Source of the DNA: a virus
Virus genome (UHGV): UHGV-0073881
Length of the DNA: 64,000 nucleotides
Direction: 5' to 3' (one strand)
Position numbers and translations under genes: made by a program. Shown here piece after piece: positions 3,367 through 60,852 of the stretch (position 1 is its first letter; every line of letters begins with the position of its first letter). Under the pieces are notes generated by a model. It was not told the DNA's origin. It ran no database searches and saw only the letters and a list, made by a program, of their open reading frames with translations.

Positions 3367-3816
3367 ATGTGTTATACAGGCGACCCCGCCAATAACCCTC
3401 TTGATAGAGTTAGAATTCTCTGCACCGACACTAATAATGATGAAATTCTTATTGAGCAATCGGTGCTAGAGTGGTTCTACCAAGAATCTGGAAAGGATGA
3501 AAAGAAAGCAGCCATCAAAGCTCTTAAATATTTACTCTTTCAAGTAGCCAAGATGGGAGATGAGAAAGTTGGTGGTGTTTATTTACGTAACTCTTCCAGA
3601 TTCAAATCTCTGAAAGCTGTTTATGACGACCTTATTAAAAGCTCTGTTTCAGGACTACCCTATGTAGGTGGTATTAATCAGTGTGATATTAATATGCGTA
3701 GTCAAAATCCTTGCTCTGTCAAGAAATATACTGAATATGGCGATGCTGCAAGATACGAGGGTAGAGATTACTGCAATCGTGTTAATGGCGTATTTGTAAT
3801 TGAGCGAGATGAATAA
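3367..3816 (+). CDS. hypothetical head-tail joining protein
   Basis: 149-aa ORF with RBS AAAGGAGGG; lies between capsid and tail sheath genes. Confidence 0.4.
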   Translation: MCYTGDPANNPLDRVRILCTDTNNDEILIEQSVLEWFYQESGKDEKKAAIKALKYLLFQVAKMGDEKVGGVYLRNSSRFKSLKAVYDDLIKSSVSGLPYVGGINQCDINMRSQNPCSVKKYTEYGDAARYEGRDYCNRVNGVFVIERDE

Positions 3817-15835: not shown

Positions 15836-17044
15836 ATGGCAGTTGGTGAAATTCAAATTAGTGCATTACCTCAAGCCTCTCTACCAATCGGGCTTAGTGA
15901 TATTTTTCACTTGAAGCAGGGTATTGAGGATAAAAGGTGTACACTAGAGCAATTACTTGCTCCACACGCATCTTTAAAGAATAACCCACACGAAGTTACA
16001 AAAAATCAGGTTGGTTTGAGTAGTGTTATTAACGCACTCCAATTAGTTGCTGCTAATAACTTGTCAGATGTTGTTAATGTTCAGGAAGCAAGAGCAAACT
16101 TAGGAATCCTTTCAAGTGACCAAGTTAATGCTCTTATTCAGACTCACATTGATGACAAGAATAACCCTCACAATACTACGAAGGGTCAAGTTGGATTAGG
16201 TAACCTCCAGAACTGGACATACTCCAATTCATACTCTGAAGATGCTGACAAATATGCTACAGCAAGGGCTGTAAACGCACTGTACAGGGCTATTCAGAAT
16301 AGTTACCCGATTGGTTCTATTCACCTGACTGTGAACCCTGCAAACCCCACTACGTACCTTCTTTGTGGGGGTACTTGGGAACTTGTCTCTAAAGGTAGAG
16401 CACTTGTAGGTTATGATACAGATTCCAGACCAGTTGATTCAACATTTGGTAGTCAGAATGTGACATTGAACAGTAACCACTTACCTGCTCACAGCCACTC
16501 AATTTACCTAACTGGTGGTACTCACAAGCATGGTAATAGTGTTTCTGTATCAAGCTTTGACTACGGAACAAGAACTACAAGTGGTTTTGACTATGGCACA
16601 AAGGCTACTAGTGGTTTTGACTATGGAAGCAAATCAACGACTCCATTTGATTATGGAAACAAATCTACGGATTATAGTGGCGACCATACCCATACGATTC
16701 CAGATTTTCCTGCTTATGAATGGAAAAATGCCACCGACAATGGTCGTTACAGAATGGGGATTAACACTAGAGATGGGGTAACAGGCTCATCCGGGAATCA
16801 CGCGCATACAGTCTATATTGGTGCTCATAGCCATTCTGTGTATATCGGTGCTCACAACCACACACTTGATATCGGTGCTCACAACCATACTTTGGCAATT
16901 GGTGCTCACACACATACAGTAACTGTAGACATTGAAGATGCTGACCATACACACTCTGGTACAACTGGTAACACTGGTAGTGGACAAGCTTTTAGTGTGG
17001 AGCAACCTTCCTATGTAGTTTACATCTGGAAGAGAGTAGCTTAA
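15836..17044 (+). CDS. tail fibre protein with His-x-His repeat tip
   Basis: 402 aa; N-terminal repeated KNNPH..TK.QVGL motif; four decapeptide repeats of the form xFDYGxxxTx; C-terminal IGAH-x-H-T repeats (GAHSHSVYIGAHNHTLDIGAHNHTLAIGAHTHT). Confidence 0.65.
   Translation: MAVGEIQISALPQASLPIGLSDIFHLKQGIEDKRCTLEQLLAPHASLKNNPHEVTKNQVGLSSVINALQLVAANNLSDVVNVQEARANLGILSSDQVNALIQTHIDDKNNPHNTTKGQVGLGNLQNWTYSNSYSEDADKYATARAVNALYRAIQNSYPIGSIHLTVNPANPTTYLLCGGTWELVSKGRALVGYDTDSRPVDSTFGSQNVTLNSNHLPAHSHSIYLTGGTHKHGNSVSVSSFDYGTRTTSGFDYGTKATSGFDYGSKSTTPFDYGNKSTDYSGDHTHTIPDFPAYEWKNATDNGRYRMGINTRDGVTGSSGNHAHTVYIGAHSHSVYIGAHNHTLDIGAHNHTLAIGAHTHTVTVDIEDADHTHSGTTGNTGSGQAFSVEQPSYVVYIWKRVA
16550..16925 (+). repeat. 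in-frame tandem repeats in the fibre gene (30-nt FDYG units and 27-nt GAH-x-H units)
   Basis: near-identical nucleotide units repeated about 4 times each, visible directly in the sequence. Confidence 0.7.
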
Positions 17045-17090: not shown

Positions 17091-19439
17091 ATGGCTGAAT
17101 ACAAACTAAGTGAACTAAACAGTATTGATACAGTTCGCTCAGACGACCTATTACATTTGAGAGTTATTAAAAGACCTGAAATGTTAGGTGACGAAGACCG
17201 TAAAATTACTTACGCAAATTTTCTAGCCTCATTTAGACTTGAAAGATTCCTGCAATTATCTGGTGGAACTATGACAGGTAATTTGGGAATTGTGAAGTTA
17301 ACTTACGGTGGAAAAGATTTATTTGACCCTACAAATTCTTCTGAAATTTCTATTGGGGATACTGCAAAGACTTTTAAAGTTAATGCAAATGGTCTTGCTT
17401 TAAAAGTTGCCGATGCAACAAGAACTGCATTTGTTTATCACACTCTGAATAAACCAAGCCCAGCAGATTTGGGTATGAGAACAAATGCTGAAAATGATGC
17501 AAGATATGCTATTAAGAATGCAGATAACACCTTTGCAGCTAGGCAGATTGTTAATATCAACGGTGCTGGTATTACCCTGAAAAGTATCTTCCCAGATGCT
17601 GGAGCATATTTTGAAGCAAGAGACTCTAACAATGCTTTGAGATTTACTGTAGGTAACTTGGATGCAAGTTCAGATGTTACTTTAGTAAATAGCAAGGGTG
17701 CTAAGTTGACTCTTGGGACAAACGCTGTTAGTGTTGATAAGGATTTTGCAATTACTGGTCAAGTATTACCAAGTGATTTGTCTAACTTCGATGCAAGATA
17801 CTACACTCAGAATGCTGCTGACCAGAGATTTGCAAGACTGACTGCAAATAACACCTTCTCAGGTACTAACAATTTCACAAACTATCAGACAATCACTTCT
17901 GATGGGGCTTTGCTGAGATTGAAGCCAGCTACAGCAAATGGTGCAGTGTTTGTTCAAGCTTATGCAGGTTCTGGCTCAGAGTCTTGGTATCTTGGTCAAC
18001 CTGACGGGACTAAGCAGGATGTTAACTTGTTTAACCAGATGACAGGTGCAACTATGAGACTCTCTACAGAGTTCTTCTTCAGTAAAGCACTAAACGTTAC
18101 TGGACAGGTTAAGCCAAGTGACTACAACAACTTTGACTCAAGATACCTGCCAGCTTCTTTAGGTAGCACACTTGCTAGGACTAACTCTGCAAATACTTTT
18201 AATGGTATTCAGACTATCCTATCTGATGAAACTCCGCTTCTACTGAAGAATAATACACTTAATGCACCATTGTATATTTCAGGGATTAATGCAAACAACA
18301 TTAGAAGATGGTATCTTGGTAATGGAGACCGTTACAATCCAGAATCCCTATTTTTGTCTAATGACACAACAGGTGCAGCGATTGTATTAAGTAACACCAT
18401 TAATATGACTAAGACCATTAATGTTACTGGTCAGGTTCAACCAAGTGATTTGTCTAACTTTGATGCAAGATACTTCTTAAAAGGTTATTTCATTGGTCAA
18501 TCAGTTATGACAAGAACGGTCAATGCTCTTGACAAACCAAACACTTTTGACATTAACTACGCAGGGTTTGTGAGAGCAAATGGTATGATTGATGGGTTAG
18601 GCTCTTTAGCTATTCATGTTCCACACTCTGCTGGTTGTGAGCATGGTAGAGGCATTAGTTTTGACTATGGAAGTGTGGGTTCGGGTCTTGGTCTAGGCAC
18701 ATATGCCTATGATGCAAGTGGTAATTACCGTGGTTCAGCAGAAATCTACACAACTGCCAGAAAACCAACAACTGCGGAGTTAGGTGTGTACAGTAAAGCA
18801 GAAACTGACCAGAGAATTGCAACAGCTATCACAAACTCAACAGACCTAAACAAGATTTACCCTGTAGGTATGGTTACACTGTTTGCTTCTAATGTCAACC
18901 CTAACGTAGCCTTTGCAGGAACTACTTGGGCTTACTTGGCAAATGGACAGTTTAGAACTATCCGTATTGCATCGTCAACTGGTGAAGATGTTGGTTCGGT
19001 TGGTGGTTCAGATACTAAGAGTATTGCCGTTGGGCATCTTCCAAACCACACGCACAGTTTCTCAGGTACTGTATCGACATTTGACCACGGAACAATTGGT
19101 ACTTCACTAAACGGTTGGCATGGTCACTCTGTGAGTGGCTCTACTGCTGCTGCTGGTGCTCACAACCACACATCATTTGCACTTGGTTGGCAGAAGGGAT
19201 GGGGTTTCCCAGCCGGTAACCAGAACATGGGTGAGTATGCAAAACCAACGTCAACTAATGGTGAACACGCTCACTCATTCTCCGGCACTGCTGCTGGCGA
19301 TGGTAACCACACTCACACTGTTCCAGTTGGTGCTCACAACCATACTTTCAGTGGTAACACTGGTGGTACGGGTTCTGGTTCAGCATTTGACGTTACTAAC
19401 GCATTCATTAAATTGATGGCATGGGTTAGAACTGCGTAA
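17091..19439 (+). CDS. long tail fibre protein
   Basis: 782 aa; three ~110-aa internal repeats marked by NVTGQV.PSD.(S/N)NFD(A/S)RY; C-terminus carries H-x-H motifs (GAHNHT, GEHAHSF, GNHTHTV) and ends like the 402-aa fibre. Confidence 0.7.
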   Translation: MAEYKLSELNSIDTVRSDDLLHLRVIKRPEMLGDEDRKITYANFLASFRLERFLQLSGGTMTGNLGIVKLTYGGKDLFDPTNSSEISIGDTAKTFKVNANGLALKVADATRTAFVYHTLNKPSPADLGMRTNAENDARYAIKNADNTFAARQIVNINGAGITLKSIFPDAGAYFEARDSNNALRFTVGNLDASSDVTLVNSKGAKLTLGTNAVSVDKDFAITGQVLPSDLSNFDARYYTQNAADQRFARLTANNTFSGTNNFTNYQTITSDGALLRLKPATANGAVFVQAYAGSGSESWYLGQPDGTKQDVNLFNQMTGATMRLSTEFFFSKALNVTGQVKPSDYNNFDSRYLPASLGSTLARTNSANTFNGIQTILSDETPLLLKNNTLNAPLYISGINANNIRRWYLGNGDRYNPESLFLSNDTTGAAIVLSNTINMTKTINVTGQVQPSDLSNFDARYFLKGYFIGQSVMTRTVNALDKPNTFDINYAGFVRANGMIDGLGSLAIHVPHSAGCEHGRGISFDYGSVGSGLGLGTYAYDASGNYRGSAEIYTTARKPTTAELGVYSKAETDQRIATAITNSTDLNKIYPVGMVTLFASNVNPNVAFAGTTWAYLANGQFRTIRIASSTGEDVGSVGGSDTKSIAVGHLPNHTHSFSGTVSTFDHGTIGTSLNGWHGHSVSGSTAAAGAHNHTSFALGWQKGWGFPAGNQNMGEYAKPTSTNGEHAHSFSGTAAGDGNHTHTVPVGAHNHTFSGNTGGTGSGSAFDVTNAFIKLMAWVRTA

Positions 19440-23214: not shown

Positions 23215-23514
23215 CTAATCTACCTTACTTAAGTTGAAGTTTAAGCCAAGTTTATCACAAACACTAATCATGTAGTCAAGAGATACTTTCCCACTACCAT
23301 TCAGGATGTTTGAGACTCTGGCTTGAGATATTTCACAAATCTTTGCTACCTGAATCTGTGAAAGGTTGTTTCTTTTCATGTGTATGTTTAACTTTTTAGA
23401 GATGTAAAACTTCATCTCATCAACATCCATTCCTGCTATATAAGCTTCCATTTCGGCCTCTCTATCTGCCTCCCAATCATCTTGAGGTGCATAAGGGTCA
23501 AAGATACTATTCAT
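23215..23514 (-). CDS. helix-turn-helix DNA-binding protein (XRE-like)
   Basis: 99 aa; C-terminal half matches an HTH pattern (LSQIQVAKICEISQARVSNILNG). Confidence 0.55.
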   Translation of the reverse strand: MNSIFDPYAPQDDWEADREAEMEAYIAGMDVDEMKFYISKKLNIHMKRNNLSQIQVAKICEISQARVSNILNGSGKVSLDYMISVCDKLGLNFNLSKVD

Positions 23515-23710
23515 CTTTCTTTCTCCGTTTACGAGAAGTGTCGATTAACGAATCAAGGTTAGTAGCTCTAACTTGTTCACGAGTACCATTGATGTAGTTA
23601 TCAAGGGACTCTACAACAGTGTTGAAGTCTTTAGCCCAAACTCTGTAAATAACTACGCCGTCATCGTCAATAACTTCACCATAGTCTACTCTACAGATAT
23701 TCTTCTTCAT
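23507..23710 (-). CDS. hypothetical protein
   Basis: 67-aa ORF coupled to neighbours. Confidence 0.4.
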   Translation of the reverse strand: MKKNICRVDYGEVIDDDGVVIYRVWAKDFNTVVESLDNYINGTREQVRATNLDSLIDTSRKRRKKDE

Positions 23711-24087
23711 TGTGGAAGACCCATGCAGTGACGGTTAATGATAAAGTGTTCAACACCGTCTAAAGCACCCTGAGAAACGTGCTCTTTCACAACTTCAATT
23801 TCAGTAATCTGCTCAGGGTTAAGAACGTCAATGTTTTCTGTAACCATCATATCAGAAACATCAAGGTAGTACTGCCCCATTGTGTGGTAATTGAAATCAA
23901 TTATCTTGTCAGTTAATTCAGAAACAGTGTCTTGAGAAATCGGCTTTGTCAATTCTCCAGCTTTAGAAACAACCTTTTGAGCAACCTGACAAGCTTCTAC
24001 TCTGACGTTGTTGTAATCAATCTTTGGCATATCTGCATAAGCATTGAAGCTTAGTGCGGCAAAGATACATAGTACAATCTTTTTCAT
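23707..24087 (-). CDS. secreted/periplasmic hypothetical protein
   Basis: 126 aa with N-terminal signal peptide MKKIVLCIFAALSFNAYA (A-x-A cleavage-like site). Confidence 0.5.
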   Translation of the reverse strand: MKKIVLCIFAALSFNAYADMPKIDYNNVRVEACQVAQKVVSKAGELTKPISQDTVSELTDKIIDFNYHTMGQYYLDVSDMMVTENIDVLNPEQITEIEVVKEHVSQGALDGVEHFIINRHCMGLPQ

Positions 24088-24179
24088 AACTTACTCCTAT
24101 ATAATATTTTGTATACCTACGAGTATAAAAATAAGCTATAACACCTGACTTGTCAACAGATTTTATAGCTTATTTGGCA

Positions 24180-24450
24180 GATTTTTTATAAAGCTACTGC
24201 CATCCTTCCATACCTTACCACACAAGACCAAACCATGCCGTACTCCACTTCACAGGACCAAGCATCACTTAAAAATCCTCTTAGAAGACTCTTAAGTGAT
24301 GCAATCGAATTTTAATGTAGCTCCGATTAACTACCCATACCTGACCGAACCTTACCGAGCCTTACCAGACACTACAGAACAGGACCGCACCGCACCTCAT
24401 TAAAAGACCCTCTTTAAAGACCTTTTAATAAGGAGCCTCCGAAGAGGCTA
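24180..24450. repeat. non-coding modular repeat region A
   Basis: no ORF of 60 aa or more; + strand strongly G-poor; shares modules with region B: 11-bp inverted repeat 24262-24302, covarying hairpin 24303-24340, box 24393-24430, short direct repeats CCTTACC and ACCGC; hairpin AGCCTC-CGAA-GAGGCT at 24431-24446. Confidence 0.6.
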
Positions 24451-24460
24451 CCTAGTCAAC

Positions 24461-24901
24461 TTAGAAGGGTTTTCTACGTTGCTTGTTAATATTAGCTTTC
24501 ATAGCAGCTAAGTGGTTTTGCTGTTCAATCAGTCGTGAACGTTCTTGATGGCTAAGTGTCATAGTGTTCACATTCTCAATTGCTTGAGTGGCTTGTTTTA
24601 AAGCACGACCAATCTTACCAGACATTTTACGTTTTGCAATAGTTGCTTGATGTTTTGGCTCAACTACTCGATAACCGACACCCATTGAAGCAACCAGATA
24701 AATCTTCTCTTCTTTAAGAAGCTTCTCAATAAACTTCTCAAGTCGATTTAGGCGTGTAAGTGCGTAAGCCTTCATTTCATCTTCGTACTTAACAATGTCA
24801 CCTTGATAAGTTGGCTTCACAATACCTAAGAAGGTGTCCATCTCAGAATGTGATACGGTGTCACCGTAACTAAACTTTGCTGCTAATGCTTTTGTATTCA
24901 T
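24461..24901 (-). CDS. hypothetical protein (cassette gene 2)
   Basis: 146 aa with basic C-terminus; flanked by the repeat regions. Confidence 0.5.
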   Translation of the reverse strand: MNTKALAAKFSYGDTVSHSEMDTFLGIVKPTYQGDIVKYEDEMKAYALTRLNRLEKFIEKLLKEEKIYLVASMGVGYRVVEPKHQATIAKRKMSGKIGRALKQATQAIENVNTMTLSHQERSRLIEQQNHLAAMKANINKQRRKPF

Positions 24902-24903
24902 AA

Positions 24904-25509
<606 letters not shown>

Positions 25510-25559
25510 TTAGTTGATTGTTAAGTTGTTTGTAAAGAACCCTCAACAGAAGACTCTTT

Positions 25560-25840
25560 AGAAACTTGGTAGATTTTTAACGTGGCTACTACCATCCACC
25601 CATATCATACCAAACCTGACCAAATCTTACCGCACCCAACATCGCCTAACCTTACCACACCTCATTAAAAGACCCTGTTTAAAGACCTTTTAAAAAGGTA
25701 AGTCTCATTTTAATGTAGCTGAGACTAACTACCCATACTAAACCTCACCGCACCTCACCGAGCCGCGCATTACCAAACCAGACCAAACCTTGCCTCACAT
25801 CACTTAAAAATCCTCTTAGAAGACTCTTAAGTGATGCTGG
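25560..25840. repeat. non-coding modular repeat region B
   Basis: G-poor + strand; same modules as region A in a different order: box 25658-25698, covarying hairpin 25701-25740, inverted repeat 25798-25837, direct repeats CCTCACCG and ACCAAACC. Confidence 0.6.
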
Positions 25841-25900
25841 TGAGTACCCGTTGGTTTATGCTGCTTAGTATACTCACCAAATTTTCTAGGTCAACAACTT

Positions 25901-27004
25901 TTATTCATAGTCTCGAATAACTAACCCAACAGGGAACTGTAAAGACCCCTTGCGAGTCATCTTCTGGAACTGAACCGTTAAAGGTTTCCCGATAAACTCT
26001 TCAGGGTGTTCAGCAAGATACTGTTTCTTCTCATGGGTAGTTTTCCATGAAACATCTACAAAGACATTTGGAAGTGTCTCTACAACAAACTTACCATGAC
26101 CCCGCTTATCGGTCTTCACACCAGTAATTTTAAACTCCTCTGTGTGCATCTTCTTATGTTTAATCAGGAAGTATGAACGGTGACCACACTCATAGAAGGA
26201 CTCTGGAGAGATTGAGCGGTACATTGCACCTTCAAACTTAGCTTCAACCCACTTATCATGAGCTTCATCAAACTCTTCCCAAGAATTTACACGACGAGAT
26301 TTAACAGGGACAACTCTACAGCCATCTCTAAAGTCATTCAATGGTGAAGTCTCAATAATACTTCTACGCTCAGGCCATGTCTTAGTGCTGTCACAGATAT
26401 CATACCAGTAAAACTTGAGTAAATGTCGGTCAGGATTGTCTTCATTTTTAATCATGGAGACAATATCTTCTAAGTCCAACCCATGAGCATAGATTTCACC
26501 ATCAAATTCATCAACGTCTTTATGGAGCCTCAACATTGCCATAATGTCAGGTATTAGCTCAGTAGGAATTTTATAAATAGTGTTCTCACGAGAATATGCT
26601 GTAAATACACTGCCAATACTTAAGTGTCTTGAAATCCTACAACGTACACCATCCAGTTTTGGTTGAGCATCAGCAGGAAATTTCAGATACTTTGCATGAC
26701 TAACCTTTGCAGCATCATGAGCAAGCTGTACACCTACCTTCTCAGTATTCTGTGCAGACTCTTTTGTGTAAGCGTAACCTTTACGGTCTACTTGTTTCTT
26801 GTACTTAGCAGAAACTTCAAAGAGAGCTTGCTGTTCAGCATTACGCTCATTCTTTTTACCGATGTTCTTAGGCTCTGCTGTGTACTCTTCAAACATCATC
26901 TTGCCATTTTCTTTACCGTAGGTTGTAACCACCTTATCACCTACAGCAACACACGACCAAACGTTAAAAGAGCCATCTTTATTTTGTTTGTACAGAATTG
27001 TCAT
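25901..27004 (-). CDS. ATP-dependent DNA ligase
   Basis: 367 aa with adenylation motif KxDGxR (PKLDGVRC) and a ligase-like downstream region. Confidence 0.85.
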   Translation of the reverse strand: MTILYKQNKDGSFNVWSCVAVGDKVVTTYGKENGKMMFEEYTAEPKNIGKKNERNAEQQALFEVSAKYKKQVDRKGYAYTKESAQNTEKVGVQLAHDAAKVSHAKYLKFPADAQPKLDGVRCRISRHLSIGSVFTAYSRENTIYKIPTELIPDIMAMLRLHKDVDEFDGEIYAHGLDLEDIVSMIKNEDNPDRHLLKFYWYDICDSTKTWPERRSIIETSPLNDFRDGCRVVPVKSRRVNSWEEFDEAHDKWVEAKFEGAMYRSISPESFYECGHRSYFLIKHKKMHTEEFKITGVKTDKRGHGKFVVETLPNVFVDVSWKTTHEKKQYLAEHPEEFIGKPLTVQFQKMTRKGSLQFPVGLVIRDYE

Positions 27005-28265: not shown

Positions 28266-28778
28266 TCAACTTAGTTTTGCAAACTCTCCGTGGAGTTTCA
28301 TAGCAGCTTCACAGTAAGCTTCATGGGCTTCTTCAGGGGTGTCATACATCCCAAGATGATAATTCTTACCTTGTAAACGAATCATTGCCCTAAACCTTTT
28401 CCCTATCTTCTGTACACCTTTTGGTAAACCTGATATGGACTTTCTAGACCGATTGCAAGAGTTTTGTGAAGCCGTACAAACCCTCAAATTCAAATACCTA
28501 TTATCCCAACCATCACAATTCTTGTGGTCAACCTGTAAGGTTTTATCAGGTAGGTATCCATCCATATACAAGATAACTAAACGATTTGCTTGGTAACTCC
28601 TTCCATCAATCAGCAATTGGACAGACTTGTGACCATCAGTGTTTGTTCTGTAGTTTCCAGCCCTCTTACCTCCAAATCTAGAGTTAAAGTTTGCATTACC
28701 TTCTCTAAATTTCCAAGTAAAGACCCCTGTATCGGGGTCGTACTCTAAAAGCTCCTTTAAACGAATTTCTGTAATCAT
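28266..28778 (-). CDS. HNH homing endonuclease with AP2-like DNA-binding domain
   Basis: HNH motif (VDHKNCDGWDNRYLNLRVCTASQN) plus AP2-like C-terminus (GVQKIGKRFRAMIRLQGKNYHLGMYDTPEEAHEAY); paralogue of the ORF at 38356; start chosen at internal Met aligning with that paralogue (track start 28817 overlaps the polymerase). Confidence 0.65.
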   Translation of the reverse strand: MITEIRLKELLEYDPDTGVFTWKFREGNANFNSRFGGKRAGNYRTNTDGHKSVQLLIDGRSYQANRLVILYMDGYLPDKTLQVDHKNCDGWDNRYLNLRVCTASQNSCNRSRKSISGLPKGVQKIGKRFRAMIRLQGKNYHLGMYDTPEEAHEAYCEAAMKLHGEFAKLS

Positions 28779-28788
28779 TTCAACACCA

Positions 28789-31494
28789 TCAATGTACTTC
28801 CAACCAGCTCTTACCAACCTTACCAGTACCTGTAACCATAGTTTCTTTTCTTAGACCAAGGTTTTTAGAAGCCTGCCCGTACATCCAGTCAGTGATAGCT
28901 TTAACCTCTTGAGTCATACTTTCTGGACATTCCCAACTATTTTCATCGTGATATGCCAGAAGAAGTCTAGCTCCAATAGCTGGCTTACGTCCATTCAGCT
29001 TCATCAACCCTTCATCATAGGCTCTACGACATGCAAGGTTAATTGCTTCATTCTGTACTTGACTTTCTGAACCCATCAAAAGGTAATTTAACAGCTTGTG
29101 TGGAGACTTACACCATAACCAAGCTCCAGCAACCTTTACAAAACCCCCTTTAGAGATTGCAGCAGTCTTACCAAAGACCTCTTCAAGAGCCTTCTTAGTC
29201 GCTTTAAAGTCAGCTTCTAAGTTATCAATCAGTTTCTTAATCTTCGGCAAACGAACGAAGTAAGTCTGTTTAGTCAATGCACCCTCCTGAGTAGTTGCTG
29301 CTTTAATGGTCTTAGCAAACTTCTCATCCCCTGCACCAAACAGCAGTGCATAGATGCCATTCTTAGCTTTCTTACGACCTTTACTGATTTCGTGAAGAAG
29401 ATTTTCATCCTGAGTCATACGACAAGTCAAGATATCCTGCTCATCATTCAAGCTGAAGTAGATACTGTTCAGTGTGTGAGCATCAGTGCCTGAGTAAACT
29501 ACGTACAAGTCGTTTTCAGAGTCATAACGCAGATACTTGTCAACCTCTGGATTCAGGTATTCGTCAAAGTGTTTGCAGTAGTAGCGACCATCTTCTTGAC
29601 GAACAAATTCAATCTCTTCTTTACCTTCGGTTACCGCTTTGGTGAACTCTTTATCACCCATAAAGTTACACAGTAAAACAAGCTGTGCAGAGTTCATATC
29701 CACAGAGACTACGTTGGTTCCCTTCTCACAAATCCAAACTGCCCTCATTGGTTCACCATAAACAGCAGCACCGGAAGGTACGTTTACAATACCATACTGT
29801 GTCATACGTCCAGTGGATGTACCAAACACCATTGCACCAGCACTTAAACGACCATCTGGACGAATCTGATTCAACCAACCTTTCTCATCATCCTTTGAGT
29901 TCTCAATAGTTCTGCGTCGGTGCATCAAAGTATAGTACTTCGCAATCTTCTGCCCAAGTTCACCTTCGATAGTGTCATAAGAAGATTCAGTCAGTTTTGG
30001 TGAAGTACGAATCAAGCAAGGTTCAAGAACATCTGTGTATTTCTTCACAGACCAATTATGCTCGATGTACTGTACCCCTTCATGCTCAACGTAGTTTAAA
30101 CCACAACGTTCAACCATTTCATCCCACTTAGGATGTTTACGAATCATCTTCTTATTATCTTTGAAGCGACAAACCTTAACAGGACGACCATCTGAGTCTT
30201 TCTTGTAGTTCCAATCATCAGGAATCCAACCAACAGATTTCAGATACTCTTTAACTACTGCAACCTGAGTCATGCGTGAAACTTCAAACTCAATCGGTGT
30301 ATATGGTGCATCAATCAAACCCGTGTAACGACTTGACTCAAGTTCAAAGTGATTAACAACATGATTGTTGTAGTACTTGACAATCTTAACAGTTTTAACT
30401 GGCTTCCAATCTTTGCACTTCTTGTCAACCTTCGCATTTAGCTCATTACATACTGCACGAGCATCTTTCATTGCCACGAAACCTTCTTTGTACTCTTCTC
30501 CGGTTACCGTGTTAGTTGGTGTGTAGCAGTTACGTTTCTCTACGCTGAAAATCTTGGTAGTTGGTTTACCAAATGGCTTAATAGGATAACTTTGCATTTC
30601 CCCATTACGAACCTGCTGACGATACTTTGTCTTAGGATACTTGGTAATACGTTTCAAACCATCTGCTTCACCAAAAGTTTCAACATACTCATTCCAAGCT
30701 TTTGCAAATTCTTCACCAGTAACTTTCCCTTTTGTCTTGATAGTTGGTGGTAAGAATGGCTCAACCTCTGAAGCAAGGTCAGCAGTCATCTTATCAAGTT
30801 CTTTAACACAACTCTTCATCATGTTAATGTCAGCTTTCCAACCATTGATAGCTTGCTGGCTCATCCAGAAAGATGTTTCTTTAGCTCGCATGTAGGTTTC
30901 GTAGGTATCCACACCACACTTCTTCAGCTTCACATACTCATTATCAAGAGCACGTTTAGTTTTGGCGTTGATTCGAATATCTTCAACAACACGAGTTAAG
31001 ATTTCAGCGTTCCAAACTCCCCACTCTTCAATCTCAGGCTTACGGACACCAACACGAGCACCCCATGCAGCCAAACCATGAGAACCCTTGTAACCTTTCG
31101 GTGTAGGTCTATCCATCCACTGAACACGAGATTGGATAAGTGAATCTTGGAAGAAATTACTCCAAGGCTTACATTTAGGGTTATCAAAGTTCCACAGGTC
31201 AGGTGCAATGTGGTTGAACACCCACCAGTCATAACCAAGACCGTTGTGAATGCAAAGACGTTTCGCCTTTAAAGCAAACTCAACACCCTCTCTTAAGCCA
31301 CCCTTGATATACTTGGTGTACTTGTGACCAAGAATAGGCTCATCAGTGAATACCCACACAGGTGGTTCATCACTGTCATCTTTGTAATCTGCAAAAGCCA
31401 TTACGTGAGCTTTAGTGAACTCAAGCAGCAATCCGTCAGTTTCTGTATCGCCTACCAGATGCAAATTTTTAAAGTCTACGTTTTCCATTTTCAC
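28789..31494 (-). CDS. DNA polymerase, family A, with 3'-5' exonuclease domain
   Basis: 901 aa; Exo I-like DTETDGL; motif B-like KNGIYALLFGAG; motif C HDE (LAYHDENSWE). Confidence 0.9.
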   Translation of the reverse strand: MKMENVDFKNLHLVGDTETDGLLLEFTKAHVMAFADYKDDSDEPPVWVFTDEPILGHKYTKYIKGGLREGVEFALKAKRLCIHNGLGYDWWVFNHIAPDLWNFDNPKCKPWSNFFQDSLIQSRVQWMDRPTPKGYKGSHGLAAWGARVGVRKPEIEEWGVWNAEILTRVVEDIRINAKTKRALDNEYVKLKKCGVDTYETYMRAKETSFWMSQQAINGWKADINMMKSCVKELDKMTADLASEVEPFLPPTIKTKGKVTGEEFAKAWNEYVETFGEADGLKRITKYPKTKYRQQVRNGEMQSYPIKPFGKPTTKIFSVEKRNCYTPTNTVTGEEYKEGFVAMKDARAVCNELNAKVDKKCKDWKPVKTVKIVKYYNNHVVNHFELESSRYTGLIDAPYTPIEFEVSRMTQVAVVKEYLKSVGWIPDDWNYKKDSDGRPVKVCRFKDNKKMIRKHPKWDEMVERCGLNYVEHEGVQYIEHNWSVKKYTDVLEPCLIRTSPKLTESSYDTIEGELGQKIAKYYTLMHRRRTIENSKDDEKGWLNQIRPDGRLSAGAMVFGTSTGRMTQYGIVNVPSGAAVYGEPMRAVWICEKGTNVVSVDMNSAQLVLLCNFMGDKEFTKAVTEGKEEIEFVRQEDGRYYCKHFDEYLNPEVDKYLRYDSENDLYVVYSGTDAHTLNSIYFSLNDEQDILTCRMTQDENLLHEISKGRKKAKNGIYALLFGAGDEKFAKTIKAATTQEGALTKQTYFVRLPKIKKLIDNLEADFKATKKALEEVFGKTAAISKGGFVKVAGAWLWCKSPHKLLNYLLMGSESQVQNEAINLACRRAYDEGLMKLNGRKPAIGARLLLAYHDENSWECPESMTQEVKAITDWMYGQASKNLGLRKETMVTGTGKVGKSWLEVH

Positions 31495-37331: not shown

Positions 37332-38378
37332 ATGGAAAAGTATACACTTACAAAACTCCCAGATACTGTGACACACGTCTTTATTGACTCTGATAGCATT
37401 GCCTATAAAGGTGCTTGTGTAGTTGAGAAAGCAAAGTACAAGTATGTGAACAAAATCACTGCTGAAGAGTCTGAAGGGTTTGACAGTGCAAAGCTTGCTA
37501 ATCAATGGTTGTCAGACCAGAGAACTTTGACAGAAGAACTTGGCCTCAGCTTTGATGAAGATGAATGGGAAAGACAAACTTGGAAAGAAGCTAAGAGTGA
37601 AAAAGAAGCTATTATGGCAACTCAACAAGTTCTTCAAGAATGGTTGAAGGTTGTCGGAAAAGAAAGACATTGGGAAGGTTACCTCACAGAGAAAGGTGTT
37701 CACAAACACAAAGACATTAAAGGTCTTGAACATCAATACCAAGGTAACAGGAAAGATGCTGTAACACCAACGCACCTAGTTGCTTGTCGTGAGTATCTTC
37801 TGTCACGACCAGAGTTTAAGCTTTTAAAGGGAGGCTTTGAAGCTGACTCTATTGTAATTGCCAAAGCTGAGAAGATGGGTAAAAAAGCTGCATTGATGAG
37901 TATTGATAAAGACCTTCGTCAAGCTGAAGGCACATACTGCATCGATATGACTTATGAGAAAGCCCCATTAATCTTTATCGCTGATGGTAATGTGGGAGAG
38001 ATTTGGGATTGTCCTATCAAATCTAAACCAAAAGCTAAGAAGACGGTTGGAGTAGGCTTCAAATTCCTCTGCTATCAAGCTGTAGCAGGTGATAATGCCG
38101 ATAACTACTTTGGCCTTAAGGGTGCTGGTAAAGTTGCTGTAATGAACGCTCTGGAAGGTAAAACAACCTATAAAGAGTGTCTTGATGCAATCTATGAACT
38201 GTATGCTAAGAAAGACTCTTACACATACGTATCGTGGGACGGTGAAACAATTACAAGAACACCTCTTGAGTTGATGGAACAACATTTCTTCTTAGCATAC
38301 CAAGAGCGAAACAAATCAGATGACTTCTCATTTGAAAAGTATGGTTGGACTCCAAATGTTGACTCAGCAGACACTTAA
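37332..38378 (+). CDS. 5'-3' exonuclease / flap endonuclease
   Basis: helix-3-turn-helix-like motif AGDNADNYFGLKGAGKVA characteristic of FEN/5'-3' exonucleases; start set at ATG 37332 (GGAG 6 nt upstream) since track start 37305 lies inside the terminator. Confidence 0.7.
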   Translation: MEKYTLTKLPDTVTHVFIDSDSIAYKGACVVEKAKYKYVNKITAEESEGFDSAKLANQWLSDQRTLTEELGLSFDEDEWERQTWKEAKSEKEAIMATQQVLQEWLKVVGKERHWEGYLTEKGVHKHKDIKGLEHQYQGNRKDAVTPTHLVACREYLLSRPEFKLLKGGFEADSIVIAKAEKMGKKAALMSIDKDLRQAEGTYCIDMTYEKAPLIFIADGNVGEIWDCPIKSKPKAKKTVGVGFKFLCYQAVAGDNADNYFGLKGAGKVAVMNALEGKTTYKECLDAIYELYAKKDSYTYVSWDGETITRTPLELMEQHFFLAYQERNKSDDFSFEKYGWTPNVDSADT

Positions 38379-38856
38379 AGAGTATCTTCATTATGACCCC
38401 GAAACAGGGGTCTTTACTTGGTTGAAGAAATCGGCTAATAGGACAGTCATTGGTTCAGTTGCTGGAACACCCCATAAAAGGGGCTATATCAGGATTACCA
38501 TAAAGAGAAAATCATACATGGCTCATGATTTAGCCATTCTTTACACAGAGGGATTCTTACCAGACCGTGTAGACCATCGTAACGGAATTACTAATGACAA
38601 CCGAAGAATGAACTTGAGAGTTTGCACTCAAGCTGAAAATTGTTGGAATAGAAAAATACACTCCAACAATACATCTGGCGTAAAAGGTGTATCATTCAAC
38701 AAAGCTTCACAGAGGTGGAGAGCAAGGATTATGGTTCACGGTGTAACACATTTCCTTGGTCTGTTTGACAATGTTGATGATGCCAAAGAAGCAATTAGAA
38801 AGAAAAGAGAAGAACTTCACAGAGAGTTCACAAATCATGGAGAAGCTTATGAATGA
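38356..38856 (+). CDS. HNH homing endonuclease with AP2-like domain
   Basis: HNH motif (VDHRNGITNDNRRMNLRVCTQAEN) and AP2-like C-terminus; paralogue of the ORF at 28266..28778 (shared YDPETGVFTW); start at internal Met aligning with paralogue, track start is 38320. Confidence 0.65.
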   Translation: MLTQQTLKEYLHYDPETGVFTWLKKSANRTVIGSVAGTPHKRGYIRITIKRKSYMAHDLAILYTEGFLPDRVDHRNGITNDNRRMNLRVCTQAENCWNRKIHSNNTSGVKGVSFNKASQRWRARIMVHGVTHFLGLFDNVDDAKEAIRKKREELHREFTNHGEAYE

Positions 38857-43244: not shown

Positions 43245-43264
43245 GGGGCTGAAAAGCCCCTTTT
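43245..43264 (+). terminator. rho-independent terminator
   Basis: GGGGCT-GAAA-AGCCCC followed by TTTT. Confidence 0.6.
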
Positions 43265-52725: not shown

Positions 52726-52740
52726 GTAAGTATTATAAGA

Positions 52741-52761
52741 GGCTCCTACGGGAGCCTTTTT
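52741..52761 (+). terminator. rho-independent terminator
   Basis: GGCTCC-TACG-GGAGCC followed by TTTTT. Confidence 0.65.
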
Positions 52762-52778
52762 AATTTCTGGAGAATGTT

Positions 52779-55934: not shown

Positions 55935-55963
55935 TTGACTGGGGCTGAAAAGCCCCTTAGAAT
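55935..55963 (+). promoter_or_regulatory. sigma70-like promoter candidate (TTGACT-N17-TAGAAT)
   Basis: hexamers with 17-nt spacer containing hairpin GGGGCT-GAAA-AGCCCC; upstream of rIIB. Confidence 0.45.
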
Positions 55964-57140: not shown

Positions 57141-57164
57141 GGGCTGCTTCGGCAGCCTTTTTTA
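57141..57164 (+). terminator. rho-independent terminator
   Basis: GGGCTGC-TTCG-GCAGCC followed by TTTTTT. Confidence 0.65.
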
Positions 57165-57224
57165 TTTGTGATTTGTGCAGAATAGTGTATAATTACCCCT
57201 ATGTTTAATAAAATAGGAGAACCA

Positions 57225-58923: not shown

Positions 58924-58935
58924 GGTTACTATATA

Positions 58936-58956
58936 GGCTCCTTCGGGAGCCTTTTT
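58936..58956 (+). terminator. rho-independent terminator
   Basis: GGCTCC-TTCG-GGAGCC followed by TTTTT. Confidence 0.65.
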
Positions 58957-58974
58957 AAATTTCAAGGAGTACTA

Positions 58975-60683: not shown

Positions 60684-60689
60684 TACACA

Positions 60690-60710
60690 GGCTCCAGAAG
60701 GAGCCTTTTT
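60690..60710 (+). terminator. rho-independent terminator
   Basis: GGCTCC-AGAA-GGAGCC followed by TTTTT. Confidence 0.65.
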
Positions 60711-60852
60711 CGTTTATGTAAGGGGTACATTATGATTAAAGTTATCAAGATAATACCATCATTGGTAATGCTCATAGTAGGGGTAGGTATTATACTTATG
60801 CTTTGCCCTGCTTTTTGGCCTTTTATCTTATAATAGTCTAGGAGATTGACAA

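What the first reader, a model, noticed from the sequence alone, without database searches (positions are those of the whole stretch)
24262..24302. 11-bp perfect inverted repeat with an 19-nt spacer, duplicated in both flanking regions
GCATCACTTAA-N19-TTAAGTGATGC occurs at 24262-24302 and, with a 10-bp stem, at 25798-25837; the spacer (AAATCCTCTTAGAAGACTC) is identical in both. It could be a dimeric protein operator, an RNase III-type processing hairpin, or a T-run-less terminator. The copy at 25798 lies about 60 nt downstream of the ligase stop on the transcribed strand.
Basis: seen in the sequence. Interest (0 to 1): 0.5.

Follow-up and report, generated by a model that had tools for sequence, protein, structure and literature searches.

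The report
Hairpin punctuating phage VIPR guide-RNA array
The flagged inverted repeat is a 19-base-pair RNA hairpin that sits immediately in front of every guide RNA of a recently published phage RNA-guided DNA-silencing system (VIPR), and it most likely marks where a long precursor RNA is cut into individual guides.

Summary
In detail: 24262-24302 is an exact match and 25797-25837 has one mismatch, with none expected by chance. The "19-nt spacer" is not a spacer. On the transcribed minus strand it pairs through G-U, giving a 19-bp stem with a 3-nt loop (-24.5 kcal/mol, against -13.3 on the plus strand).

The window is a Felix O1-like phage. The two copies flank a two-gene operon. Its first protein aligns end to end with the solved SUSP1 Vipr protein (PDB 36pp, E=4e-127). 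Its second is 99% identical to SUSP1 vap1.

Both intergenic regions consist of iterated units of hairpin, 11-13 NNGGY pentamers and a pseudoknot tail. These are the vrRNAs of the VIPR system described in two 2026 bioRxiv preprints.

Neither preprint mentions this hairpin or how type II vrRNAs mature. In 21 related loci, 91 hairpins alternate strictly with 91 vrRNAs. Pairing is kept by compensatory changes.

I found one strong sigma70-like promoter and no terminator. The units abut within 0-2 nt.

Best reading: an inter-guide processing hairpin, probably cut by host RNase III. This is inferred, not shown. The two copies also bound a presence/absence polymorphism, because Felix O1 lacks everything between them.

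The system is already known. The hairpin's role is an untested detail.

The parts
25867..25894 (-). Sigma70-like promoter TTGACC-N16-TATACT just after the ligase stop. The predicted start is near 25860, about 23 nt upstream of H1'.
   Evidence: 10 of 12 matches, joint best hit on the minus strand. The same promoter is present in SUSP1 (L013) and in Felix O1.
25797..25837 (-). It directly abuts vrRNA A.
   Evidence: (-23.1 kcal/mol), (60.2 bits).
25701..25796 (-). vrRNA A: 13 NNGGY pentamers (25732-25796) plus a hairpin/pseudoknot tail (25701-25734; GGGTAGTT-AGTCTCA-GCTACATTAAAA-TGAGACT).
   Evidence: (periodicity). The tail stem covaries with tail C (AGTCTCA/TGAGACT against AATCGGA/TTCGATT).
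25659..25699 (-). H2': a diverged copy of the hairpin, 17-18 bp with G-U pairs, directly in front of vrRNA B.
   Evidence: -13.8 kcal/mol on minus, -8.2 on plus; 63.5 bits.
25568..25658 (-). vrRNA B: 12 pentamers (25599-25658) plus a tail (25568-25601; GGTAG...CTACC hairpin).
25528..25565 (-). H3: a third hairpin type (16 bp, 4-nt loop) between the last upstream vrRNA and the vipr ribosome-binding site.
   Evidence: (-12.1 kcal/mol; 43.3 bits). Present in all 21 loci.
24904..25491 (-). vipr, encoding a 195-aa RAMP-fold protein that binds the GGY motifs. The ORF list gives a GTG start at 25506. The solved SUSP1 protein starts at the ATG at 25491.
24461..24901 (-). vap1, the vipr-accessory gene (146 aa).
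   Evidence: 144 of 146 residues identical to the SUSP1 gene downstream of vipr. (phrog_5926). (the paper reports that vap1 enhances protection).
24434..24449 (-). Small GC-rich UUCG-tetraloop hairpin between the vap stop and H2. It could protect the 3' end of the vipr-vap mRNA if the RNA is cut at H2 (inference).
   Evidence: (-9.1 kcal/mol). Conserved in SUSP1.
24395..24433 (-). H2: a diverged copy of the hairpin (18 bp, 3-nt loop) directly in front of vrRNA C.
   Evidence: -16.3 kcal/mol on minus, -7.3 on plus; 62.2 bits.
24303..24394 (-). vrRNA C: 12 pentamers (24334-24394) plus a pseudoknot tail (24303-24336).
24262..24302 (-). It lies 0 nt after tail C and 0 nt before vrRNA D.
   Evidence: -24.5 kcal/mol, z -9.3; 57.9 bits.
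24176..24261 (-). vrRNA D: 11 pentamers (24207-24261) plus a tail (24176-24209; GGCAG...CTGCC). It is nearly the same as the last SUSP1 vrRNA, with two NN changes.
24129..24175 (-). H4: a distal 18-bp hairpin closing the array. Its loop carries the -35 hexamer of the promoter of the next gene (24156-24128).
   Evidence: (I1), (-17.2 kcal/mol).

Best explanation
The inverted repeat is an RNA element, not a DNA site. It is the inter-guide hairpin of a type II (SUSP1-clade) VIPR locus.

The proposed pathway is as follows. One promoter downstream of the ligase gene drives a long minus-strand transcript. Its order is H1', vrRNA A, H2', vrRNA B, H3, vipr, vap1, H2, vrRNA C, H1, vrRNA D, H4.

Each vrRNA consists of 11-13 NNGGY pentamers and a 3' pseudoknot tail. 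Published work on SUSP1 shows that Vipr protomers coat the tract and the NN dinucleotides read double-stranded DNA.

The 16-20-bp hairpins bracket every vrRNA and take up essentially all the sequence between neighbouring units. I propose that they are the cleavage signals that release the roughly 100-nt mature guides and the vipr-vap mRNA from the precursor. The most likely enzyme is the host double-strand-specific RNase III.

Shown here: the RNA-strand helix, its conservation and covariation, the strict hairpin/vrRNA alternation, and membership of the VIPR family.

Inferred: transcription as a single precursor, exclusion of the hairpin from the mature guide, and the identity of the nuclease.

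A DNA-level side effect follows from the near-identical H1 copies in direct orientation. They also act as recombination joints for gain, loss or shuffling of guide cassettes.
For: Family membership:
- The Vipr profile and the single sequence both hit PDB 36pp 'SUSP1 Vipr protein'.
- The predicted fold is RAMP/Cas7-like.
- vap1 is 99% identical to the SUSP1 gene.
- The four pentamer-phased tracts are unique in the window and lie on the gene strand only.
- All relatives, including distant ones, carry such tracts.
- The papers define VIPR by exactly these features.

RNA helix:
- Minus-strand folds are far more stable than plus-strand folds for H1, H1', H2 and H2'.
- On 41 unique hairpins, 90.4% of cells are paired, against 69% or less when partners are slid.
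- 7 of 19 pairs show changes on both sides, and no shuffle of 500 reached the observed covariation score.
- G-U pairs are conserved at three positions.
- The hairpins persist in MFE and centroid folds of the predicted precursors.

Punctuation:
- In all 21 SUSP1-clade loci the order is (H-tail)n, H3, vipr-vap, (H-tail)n.
- 91 hairpins were counted against 90 tails matched by pattern, with one L012 tail variant missed.
- Gaps between a tail and the next hairpin are 0-2 nt, so no single-stranded linker is left for other endonucleases.
- A 21-nt loop insertion is tolerated as long as the lower stem is kept.

Need for processing:
- Only one strong sigma70-like promoter lies upstream of the array, there is none between vrRNAs, and no terminator-like sites were found.
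- SUSP1 has the same hairpins, yet its vrRNAs are reported as about 100 nt or less, made of 12 repeats and a tail of about 40 nt. That leaves no room for a 41-nt hairpin.
- Mature ribonucleoprotein formed in E. coli from a construct carrying only vrRNA1 and vipr. Any additional factors must therefore come from the host.

Analogy within the family:
- Other VIPR types carry hammerhead ribozymes between adjacent vrRNAs.
- A Rhodococcus prophage array carries tRNA-like minihelices in the same position.

RNase III:
- The enzyme accommodates about 22 bp of dsRNA and makes staggered double cuts in stem-loops (PMC6212723).

Recombination:
- The Felix O1 spacer equals the window's IGR2 up to H1' joined to IGR1 from H1 onward.
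Against: - No transcript ends or cleavage data are available to me. The preprints do not mention the hairpin, precursors or RNase III.
- The '~100 nt' figure is approximate, and I could not see the coverage plots.
- The stem is 19 bp (16-21 in relatives), slightly below the ~22-bp footprint. I did not score it against RNase III sequence preferences.
- Phage-specific promoters that the sigma70 consensus scan cannot see could give each vrRNA its own start.
- Most of the covariation is between the paralogous types H1, H2 and H3, so it reflects few independent events. The sequences are closely related.
- The apical 10 bp are conserved in sequence across types. That could instead indicate a sequence-specific binding protein.
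- Distant VIPR loci such as L026 have tracts with no long hairpin, so a hairpin of this kind is not a general requirement of the system.
Confidence: 0.55

Rival explanations
1. The hairpin is a structural boundary or insulator that RNase III does not cut. It forms quickly during transcription and keeps each G/U-rich tract and pseudoknot folding on its own. It also sets the 5' limit of the Vipr filament, for which density resolves in an apparent 3'-to-5' direction from the pseudoknot. Ends are then made by non-specific trimming of whatever Vipr and the pseudoknot do not protect.
For: The hairpin abuts the first repeat with 0 nt between them. In H2 the last five bases (GAGGU) form an in-phase GGY unit. 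The cryo-EM paper describes protomers resolving in a 3'-to-5' direction from the pseudoknot. Distant VIPR loci manage without a long hairpin. The sequence of the apical half is conserved.
Against: Trimming alone does not need a helix of conserved length on both sides of every guide and in front of the vipr mRNA. A perfect 19-bp dsRNA would be expected to be an RNase III substrate in E. coli in any case (general knowledge). Other VIPR types place true cleavage elements, hammerhead ribozymes, in this position.
Confidence: 0.25
2. The element matters mainly at the DNA level, as a repeat that mediates homologous recombination. This would allow cassette gain, loss and exchange of guides between co-infecting phages. 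The RNA hairpin would be incidental.
For: Nearly identical copies in direct orientation flank vipr-vap. Felix O1 has exactly the H1'/H1 deletion product. Array layouts vary among close relatives: 2+2, 2+3, 1+3, 3+2 and 2+1. 130 of 260 related phage records have no Vipr hit.
Against: A recombination repeat does not have to be a palindrome. Compensatory changes and conserved G-U pairs show selection on pairing in one strand. H3 and H4 are hairpins with different sequences in the same kind of position.
Confidence: 0.1
3. It is an intrinsic (T-run-less) terminator or attenuator that ends each vrRNA or the ligase transcript. Annotators of phage ASO1B labelled this hairpin a terminator.
For: ASO1B annotates the homologous hairpin as a rho-independent terminator predicted by TransTermHP. 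It is a stable stem about 60 nt after the ligase stop.
Against: There is no U-run after any copy, and the scan found no terminator-like sites in 24050-25950. H1' lies downstream of the promoter, not upstream of it. vipr and vap would be cut off from the only strong promoter by three successive hairpins. The stem is AU/GU-rich.
Confidence: 0.05
4. It is a palindromic DNA operator for a dimeric regulator, for example Vap1 or the HTH protein encoded at 23215-23514.
For: The outer 11 bp of H1 are a perfect DNA palindrome. An HTH regulator gene lies nearby. vap genes are predicted to be DNA-binding.
Against: H2, H2' and H3 are poor DNA palindromes, with 4-5 G-T positions. The paralogues keep pairing, not sequence. 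No copy overlaps a -35 or -10 element. The plus-strand model scores are 17-26 bits against 58-64 on the minus strand.
Confidence: 0.05

Closest known systems
Type II VIPR system of Escherichia phage SUSP1 (bioRxiv 10.64898/2026.04.26.720920 and 10.64898/2026.04.26.720927; PDB 36pp)
   Same: Vipr is about 97% identical and vap1 99% identical. The promoter, the GGY/NN pentamer tracts and the pseudoknot tails are the same. The H1, H2 and H3 hairpins occupy the same positions.
   Different: The layout is 2 upstream plus 2 downstream vrRNAs here, against 1 plus 3 in SUSP1. Most NN guide codes differ. The hairpin itself is not described in either preprint.
Hammerhead-ribozyme-interspersed vrRNA arrays (VIPR types I and V, same preprint, fig. 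S19)
   Same: A structured RNA element sits between adjacent vrRNAs at the position where the precursor has to be cut.
   Different: Those elements cleave themselves. The hairpin here has no ribozyme features and no Rfam match, so it would need a protein nuclease.
RNase III processing sites of polycistronic phage and bacterial transcripts (T7 early-region R sites, rRNA operon stems; the tracrRNA:repeat duplex in type II CRISPR)
   Same: Helices of about 20 bp between functional RNA units of one transcript. In CRISPR type II the host RNase III matures guide RNAs. This rests on general knowledge.
   Different: Cleavage is not demonstrated here. The helix is an uninterrupted intramolecular hairpin with a 3-nt loop, not an internal-loop substrate like T7 R1.1 and not an intermolecular duplex like tracrRNA:repeat.
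CRISPR repeats and Cas6-type pre-crRNA processing
   Same: A conserved, structured 'repeat' (tail plus hairpin) alternates with variable guide segments. The repeat copies also mediate deletion of cassettes.
   Different: There is no Cas6, Cas1 or Cas2. The guide is a phased pentamer tract rather than a contiguous spacer. The element lies in a lytic phage.

Membership tests
VIPR system (Vipr + vrRNA) | A Vipr protein: a minimal RAMP fold with an RRM core, a glycine-rich loop and a thumb. | tested here: met
VIPR system (Vipr + vrRNA) | vrRNAs made of 9-16 tandem YNNGG repeats, with conserved GGY and variable NN, flanking vipr. | tested here: met
   Four tracts of 11-13 pentamers lie on the gene strand only. 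Each has 9-11 in-phase GT per 65 nt, against 7 or fewer elsewhere in 64 kb. NN positions vary among relatives while GGY is kept.
VIPR system (Vipr + vrRNA) | A conserved structured 3' tail (hairpin plus pseudoknot in the SUSP1 clade). | tested here: inconclusive
   Tail hairpins are present after every tract, and the A and C tails differ by fully compensatory stem changes. The pseudoknot pairing was seen by eye only and was not tested statistically.
VIPR system (Vipr + vrRNA) | A vipr-accessory gene (vap) next to vipr. | tested here: met
   The 146-aa ORF is 144/146 identical to the SUSP1 gene downstream of vipr. The same gene order is found in distant loci.
VIPR system (Vipr + vrRNA) | vrRNAs are expressed, bind Vipr and direct DNA binding by the 1-nt-skip rule. 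| not testable with these tools
   This was shown for SUSP1 in the preprints. For this window I found no target by exact gapped-code search.
RNase III substrate | An uninterrupted dsRNA helix of about two turns (about 20-22 bp) on a transcribed strand. | tested here: met
   19 bp in H1 and H1', 16-21 bp in relatives, on the gene strand. The helix is kept by covariation. Transcription is inferred from the promoter and from the SUSP1 sRNA-seq.
RNase III substrate | rnc-dependent staggered cleavage leaving 2-nt 3' overhangs. | not testable with these tools
   No end-mapping data are available. The preprints do not address it.
RNase III substrate | Base-pair preferences and absence of antideterminants in the proximal and distal boxes. 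| not tested
   The scoring table of PMC6212723 was not applied, because the cleavage site needed to anchor it is unknown.
Intrinsic terminator | A GC-rich stem followed by a U-run. | tested here: not met
   No terminator-like sites in 24050-25950. The stems are AU/GU-rich and are followed by GGY repeats.
Operator of a dimeric DNA-binding protein | A sequence-conserved DNA palindrome placed at a promoter. | tested here: not met
   Only H1 is a good DNA palindrome. H2 and H3 pair through G-U. No copy overlaps a promoter hexamer.

The most novel reading that the evidence does not exclude
The hairpin is the missing biogenesis signal of type II VIPR systems. Host RNase III, or conceivably Vipr itself, would cut it to set the ends of the guides, as RNase III matures crRNAs in type II CRISPR. 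The same repeat would serve as the recombination joint through which phages swap, gain and lose guide cassettes. Together these would make tail plus hairpin a functional equivalent of a CRISPR repeat in a system proposed to predate CRISPR.
Probability: 0.4. Interest if true: 0.55.

Novelty: new member of a known kind. Interest (0 to 1): 0.38.

Why it matters
VIPR was described only in 2026 as a new, minimal way of RNA-guided DNA recognition and as a possible ancestor of CRISPR effectors. The preprints show how the guide is read but, as far as their text can be searched, not how type II guides are cut out of their arrays.

If the hairpin is the processing signal, it fills that gap. It would also tell engineers what to place between guides in multiplexed vrRNA arrays. 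It would add a parallel with RNase III-dependent crRNA maturation.

The deletion seen in Felix O1 gives a simple mechanism for the patchy distribution of VIPR among closely related phages.

If the hairpin has no such role, the finding is an ordinary conserved stem-loop inside an already published system.

Tried and rejected
Hypotheses held before the system was identified:
- I considered a TRAP-like ring protein binding (GGU-N2)n, an R-loop replication origin (G-rich non-template strand next to replication genes) and two-tier G-quadruplex arrays.
- All three were dropped once the adjacent protein matched the solved Vipr structure and the preprints explained the pentamers.

Leads that turned out to be something else:
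- I guessed that the KhF3 annotation 'possible binding site of StbAB' referred to the hairpin. It lies elsewhere and is unrelated.
- The ops-like GGCAGTAGC is simply one arm of the tail hairpin.

Database screens:
- Rfam (gathering threshold on the window; E<=0.1 on 7 distant loci) found nothing.
- ARAGORN found nothing relevant in the window.

Target search with the published 1-nt-skip rule:
- No self-target in the window beats shuffled codes.
- There are no exact matches for the four guides in viral contigs, and none for two guides in genome contigs.
- Natural targets reported for this clade lie in E. coli satellite prophages and often match imperfectly. These tools cannot search for that.
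- blastn of IGR1 against all complete E. coli genomes found no copy of the module.

A tally error:
- A first hairpin/tail tally was inflated by a loose pattern that matched coding sequence. It was redone.

Full report
**Observation.** The pattern GCATCACTTAA-N19-TTAAGTGATGC is present at 24262-24302 with no mismatch and at 25797-25837 with one. No match occurred in any of 100 dinucleotide-preserving shuffles. The inner 19 nt are identical in both copies.

Genes in this part of the window run on the minus strand. They are a 126-aa ORF at 23707-24087, a 146-aa ORF at 24461-24901, a 200-aa ORF at 24904-25506 and an ATP-dependent DNA ligase at 25901-27004. The two copies therefore lie in the two intergenic regions that flank a two-gene operon. 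The upstream copy starts 63 nt after the ligase stop.

**The 'spacer' is stem.** Folded as RNA, the minus strand of H1 gives an uninterrupted 19-bp helix with a 3-nt loop at -24.5 kcal/mol (z = -9.3). The plus strand gives only the outer 11 bp, at -13.3 kcal/mol. The difference comes from G-U pairs that become A-C mismatches on the other strand.

The diverged copies at 24395-24433 and 25659-25699 are 65% identical to H1 and behave the same way. A further hairpin (H3, 25528-25565) precedes the 200-aa gene.

**Surroundings.** Both intergenic regions have the same modular build. On the minus strand each hairpin is followed directly by about 60 nt with a strict 5-nt period (NNGGY). These four blocks have 9-11 in-phase GT per 65 nt. 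The best elsewhere in 64 kb is 7 on the minus strand and 6 on the plus strand.

Each block is followed by a small stem-loop with a conserved loop. Its stem differs between the two regions by fully compensatory changes (AGTCTCA/TGAGACT against AATCGGA/TTCGATT).

**Relatives.** The window is a Felix O1-like phage, genus Felixounavirus. I fetched 23 loci encoding relatives of the 200-aa protein. All close relatives carry 3-5 phased blocks, always on the gene strand.

Distant loci carry them too. These include a GC-rich phage contig, a Rhodococcus prophage and a Salmonella-associated contig, where the protein is only 36-47% identical. They show long GGNNN arrays next to the same two-gene cassette, with lineage-specific structured elements between the arrays.

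Two 2026 bioRxiv preprints describe the system (10.64898/2026.04.26.720920 and 10.64898/2026.04.26.720927):
- VIPR stands for Viral Interference Programmable Repeat.
- It consists of vipr, an accessory gene vap, and vrRNAs made of 9-16 YNNGG repeats followed by a conserved 3' tail. In the SUSP1 clade the tail holds a hairpin and a pseudoknot.
- Vipr protomers bind one repeat each, sequester the GGY motif and present the NN dinucleotides.
- The NN dinucleotides pair with double-stranded DNA while skipping every third base, and this silences competing phages and satellites.

Eight of the nine RNA-contact residues named there are identical in the window protein. The 146-aa ORF is 99% identical to the SUSP1 gene downstream of vipr (vap1). 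Locus L013 has the length of the SUSP1 genome and the published layout of one upstream and three downstream vrRNAs. The window therefore holds a member of the published SUSP1 VIPR clade, with a 2+2 layout and largely different NN codes.

**Where the hairpin fits.** Text searches of both preprints find no mention of this hairpin, of precursors, of maturation or of RNase III for type II systems. The only 'hairpin' they mention is in the tail. Yet SUSP1 itself has the same 41-nt hairpins in front of each of its four tracts.

Across the window and 20 related loci the order is invariably (hairpin-vrRNA)n, H3, vipr-vap, (hairpin-vrRNA)n. There are 91 hairpins. A pattern search matched 90 tails and missed one variant tail.

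Apparent exceptions still have the hairpin. One group carries a 21-nt insertion in the loop but keeps the lower stem. Others have one or two mismatches. The gap between a tail and the next hairpin is 0-2 nt, and the hairpin abuts the first repeat.

A covariance model of the hairpin gave these results:
- In the 64-kb window, five hits on the minus strand only and nothing else.
- In the 20 related loci, 107 gene-strand hits.
- In the distant VIPR loci, no hits.

The high scores are partly by construction, because these sequences trained the model. The informative results are the absence of hits elsewhere and the strand asymmetry.

**Covariation.** On 41 unique hairpins, 90.4% of cells form standard pairs. 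Sliding the 3' partners by 1-3 columns gives 69% or less. Seven of 19 pairs show changes on both sides (81 cells). None of 500 shuffles reaches the observed score. Three positions are conserved as G-U or U-G.

There is a caveat. Most double changes separate the paralogous types H1, H2 and H3, so the number of independent events is small, and the sequences are closely related.

**Why a processing signal.**
- The sigma70 scan finds only two strong minus-strand promoters. One is at 25894-25867, upstream of H1', and the other is at 24156-24128, for the next gene. There are none between vrRNAs and no terminator-like sites.
- The locus therefore looks like one transcription unit in which four vrRNAs and one mRNA have to be separated.
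- The hairpins are stable in MFE and centroid folds of the predicted precursors. They occupy all the sequence between units.
- SUSP1 vrRNAs are reported as about 100 nt or less, made of 12 repeats plus a tail of about 40 nt. That excludes the 41-nt hairpin.
- Mature ribonucleoprotein forms in E. coli from a construct with only vrRNA1 and vipr. Any nuclease other than Vipr must therefore come from the host.
- A perfect 19-bp RNA helix is the kind of substrate that E. coli RNase III accommodates and cuts on both strands (PMC6212723).
- Other VIPR types place hammerhead ribozymes between vrRNAs.
- In a Rhodococcus prophage the same position holds tRNA-like minihelices, and ARAGORN calls two of them as odd tRNAs.
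- A small GC-rich UUCG hairpin lies between the vap stop and H2. It would be well placed to protect the mRNA 3' end after such a cut. This last point is inference.

None of this shows cleavage. I put RNase III-type processing at about 0.55. A non-cleaved boundary or insulator role is at about 0.25.

**DNA-level consequence.** Felix O1 itself lacks vipr and vap. Its 282-nt spacer between the ligase and the next gene aligns with the window's IGR2 up to H1', and with IGR1 from H1 onward. The crossover falls inside the hairpin. The model finds a single, slightly decayed copy there at 44 bits.

This is consistent with recombination between them. It also fits the variable layouts among relatives, and the fact that only 130 of 260 related records have a Vipr hit.

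**Other readings.** A terminator fails for lack of a U-run and because of the position of the hairpins relative to the promoter and to vipr. One published annotation (phage ASO1B) did label this hairpin a terminator. An operator fails on strand asymmetry and on conservation of pairing rather than sequence.

**Targets.** I applied the published 1-nt-skip rule to the four guide codes. I found no self-target and no exact match in the viral or genome collections. E. coli chromosomes hold no copy of the module. This does not bear on the hairpin.

**Verdict.** The element is an RNA hairpin belonging to an already published system. Its specific role is not described in the literature I could search. 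That role is probably guide-array punctuation and processing, with a side role as a recombination joint. It can be tested directly.

Noticed in passing
L031 7700-7900 (Salmonella phage Felix O1, NC_005282 57700-57900, minus strand): Felix O1 lacks vipr and vap but keeps the promoter, one slightly decayed H1 hairpin, one 11-unit pentamer tract and the D-type tail. This is an orphan vrRNA with no Vipr gene in the 70 kb I examined.
   Followed up: partly
L027 5103-5673 (Rhodococcus globerulus JBBCXC010000002.1): Five tandem (GGCNN)n tracts are each followed by a tRNA-like acceptor/T-arm minihelix (GGTTCGATTCC T-loop). ARAGORN calls two of them as tRNAs with nonsense anticodons. The element sits next to what appears by eye to be the 3' end of a tRNA gene (about 3390-3440; ARAGORN did not call it), as expected for an integrated element. 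This suggests array processing by tRNA-maturation enzymes.
   Followed up: partly
L026 2376-3820: In a distant, GC-richer phage contig the pentamer tracts (12-19 units) fill the space between the stop codons and the next ribosome-binding sites of the vipr and vap homologues. They have no long hairpins and almost no tail.
   Followed up: no
L029 5096-5799 (Salmonella-associated contig): Six tracts are each followed by GAATAG and a 12-16-bp hairpin whose sequence differs from unit to unit. The variable stems in a constant position look like covariation.
   Followed up: no
L012 3703-3769; L014, L016 and L017 3698-3763: A 21-nt insertion (TTAAATTATATTCGA[A/T]AGAGTATCTCATA) replaces the apex of an H1 hairpin and forms its own mini-stem. 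The lower stem is intact.
   Followed up: partly
window 16799-16920 and 19143-19345: In-frame 27-nt tandem repeats (GGTGCTCACAACCAYAC), found in the whole-window repeat scan. From memory, they resemble the His-x-His repeats of tail-fibre genes. The genes at these coordinates were not checked.
   Followed up: no
window 52740-52766, 57141-57167, 58935-58961, 60689-60715; also 43245-43262 and 55941-55958: Recurrent GC-rich hairpins followed by T-runs (AGGCTCCTTCGGGAGCCTTTTT; GGGGCTGAAAAGCCCCTT) look like intrinsic terminators on the plus strand. They contrast with the AU/GU-rich VIPR hairpins.
   Followed up: no
window 28713-28757 and 38377-38421: A 45-nt inverted repeat (80% complementary) lies 9.6 kb apart. 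One arm is inside a 183-aa ORF (28266-28817), which lies next to the DNA polymerase region, where related phages carry HNH homing endonucleases. The arms may belong to paralogous endonuclease genes on opposite strands.
   Followed up: no
L003 1668-1712 (phage ASO1B) and L002 1575-1611 (phage Andreotti): Public annotations label the H1 hairpin a rho-independent terminator and a GGY/NN tract a plain repeat_region. In KhF1, KhF2 and KhF3 the vipr gene is not annotated at all.
   Followed up: yes
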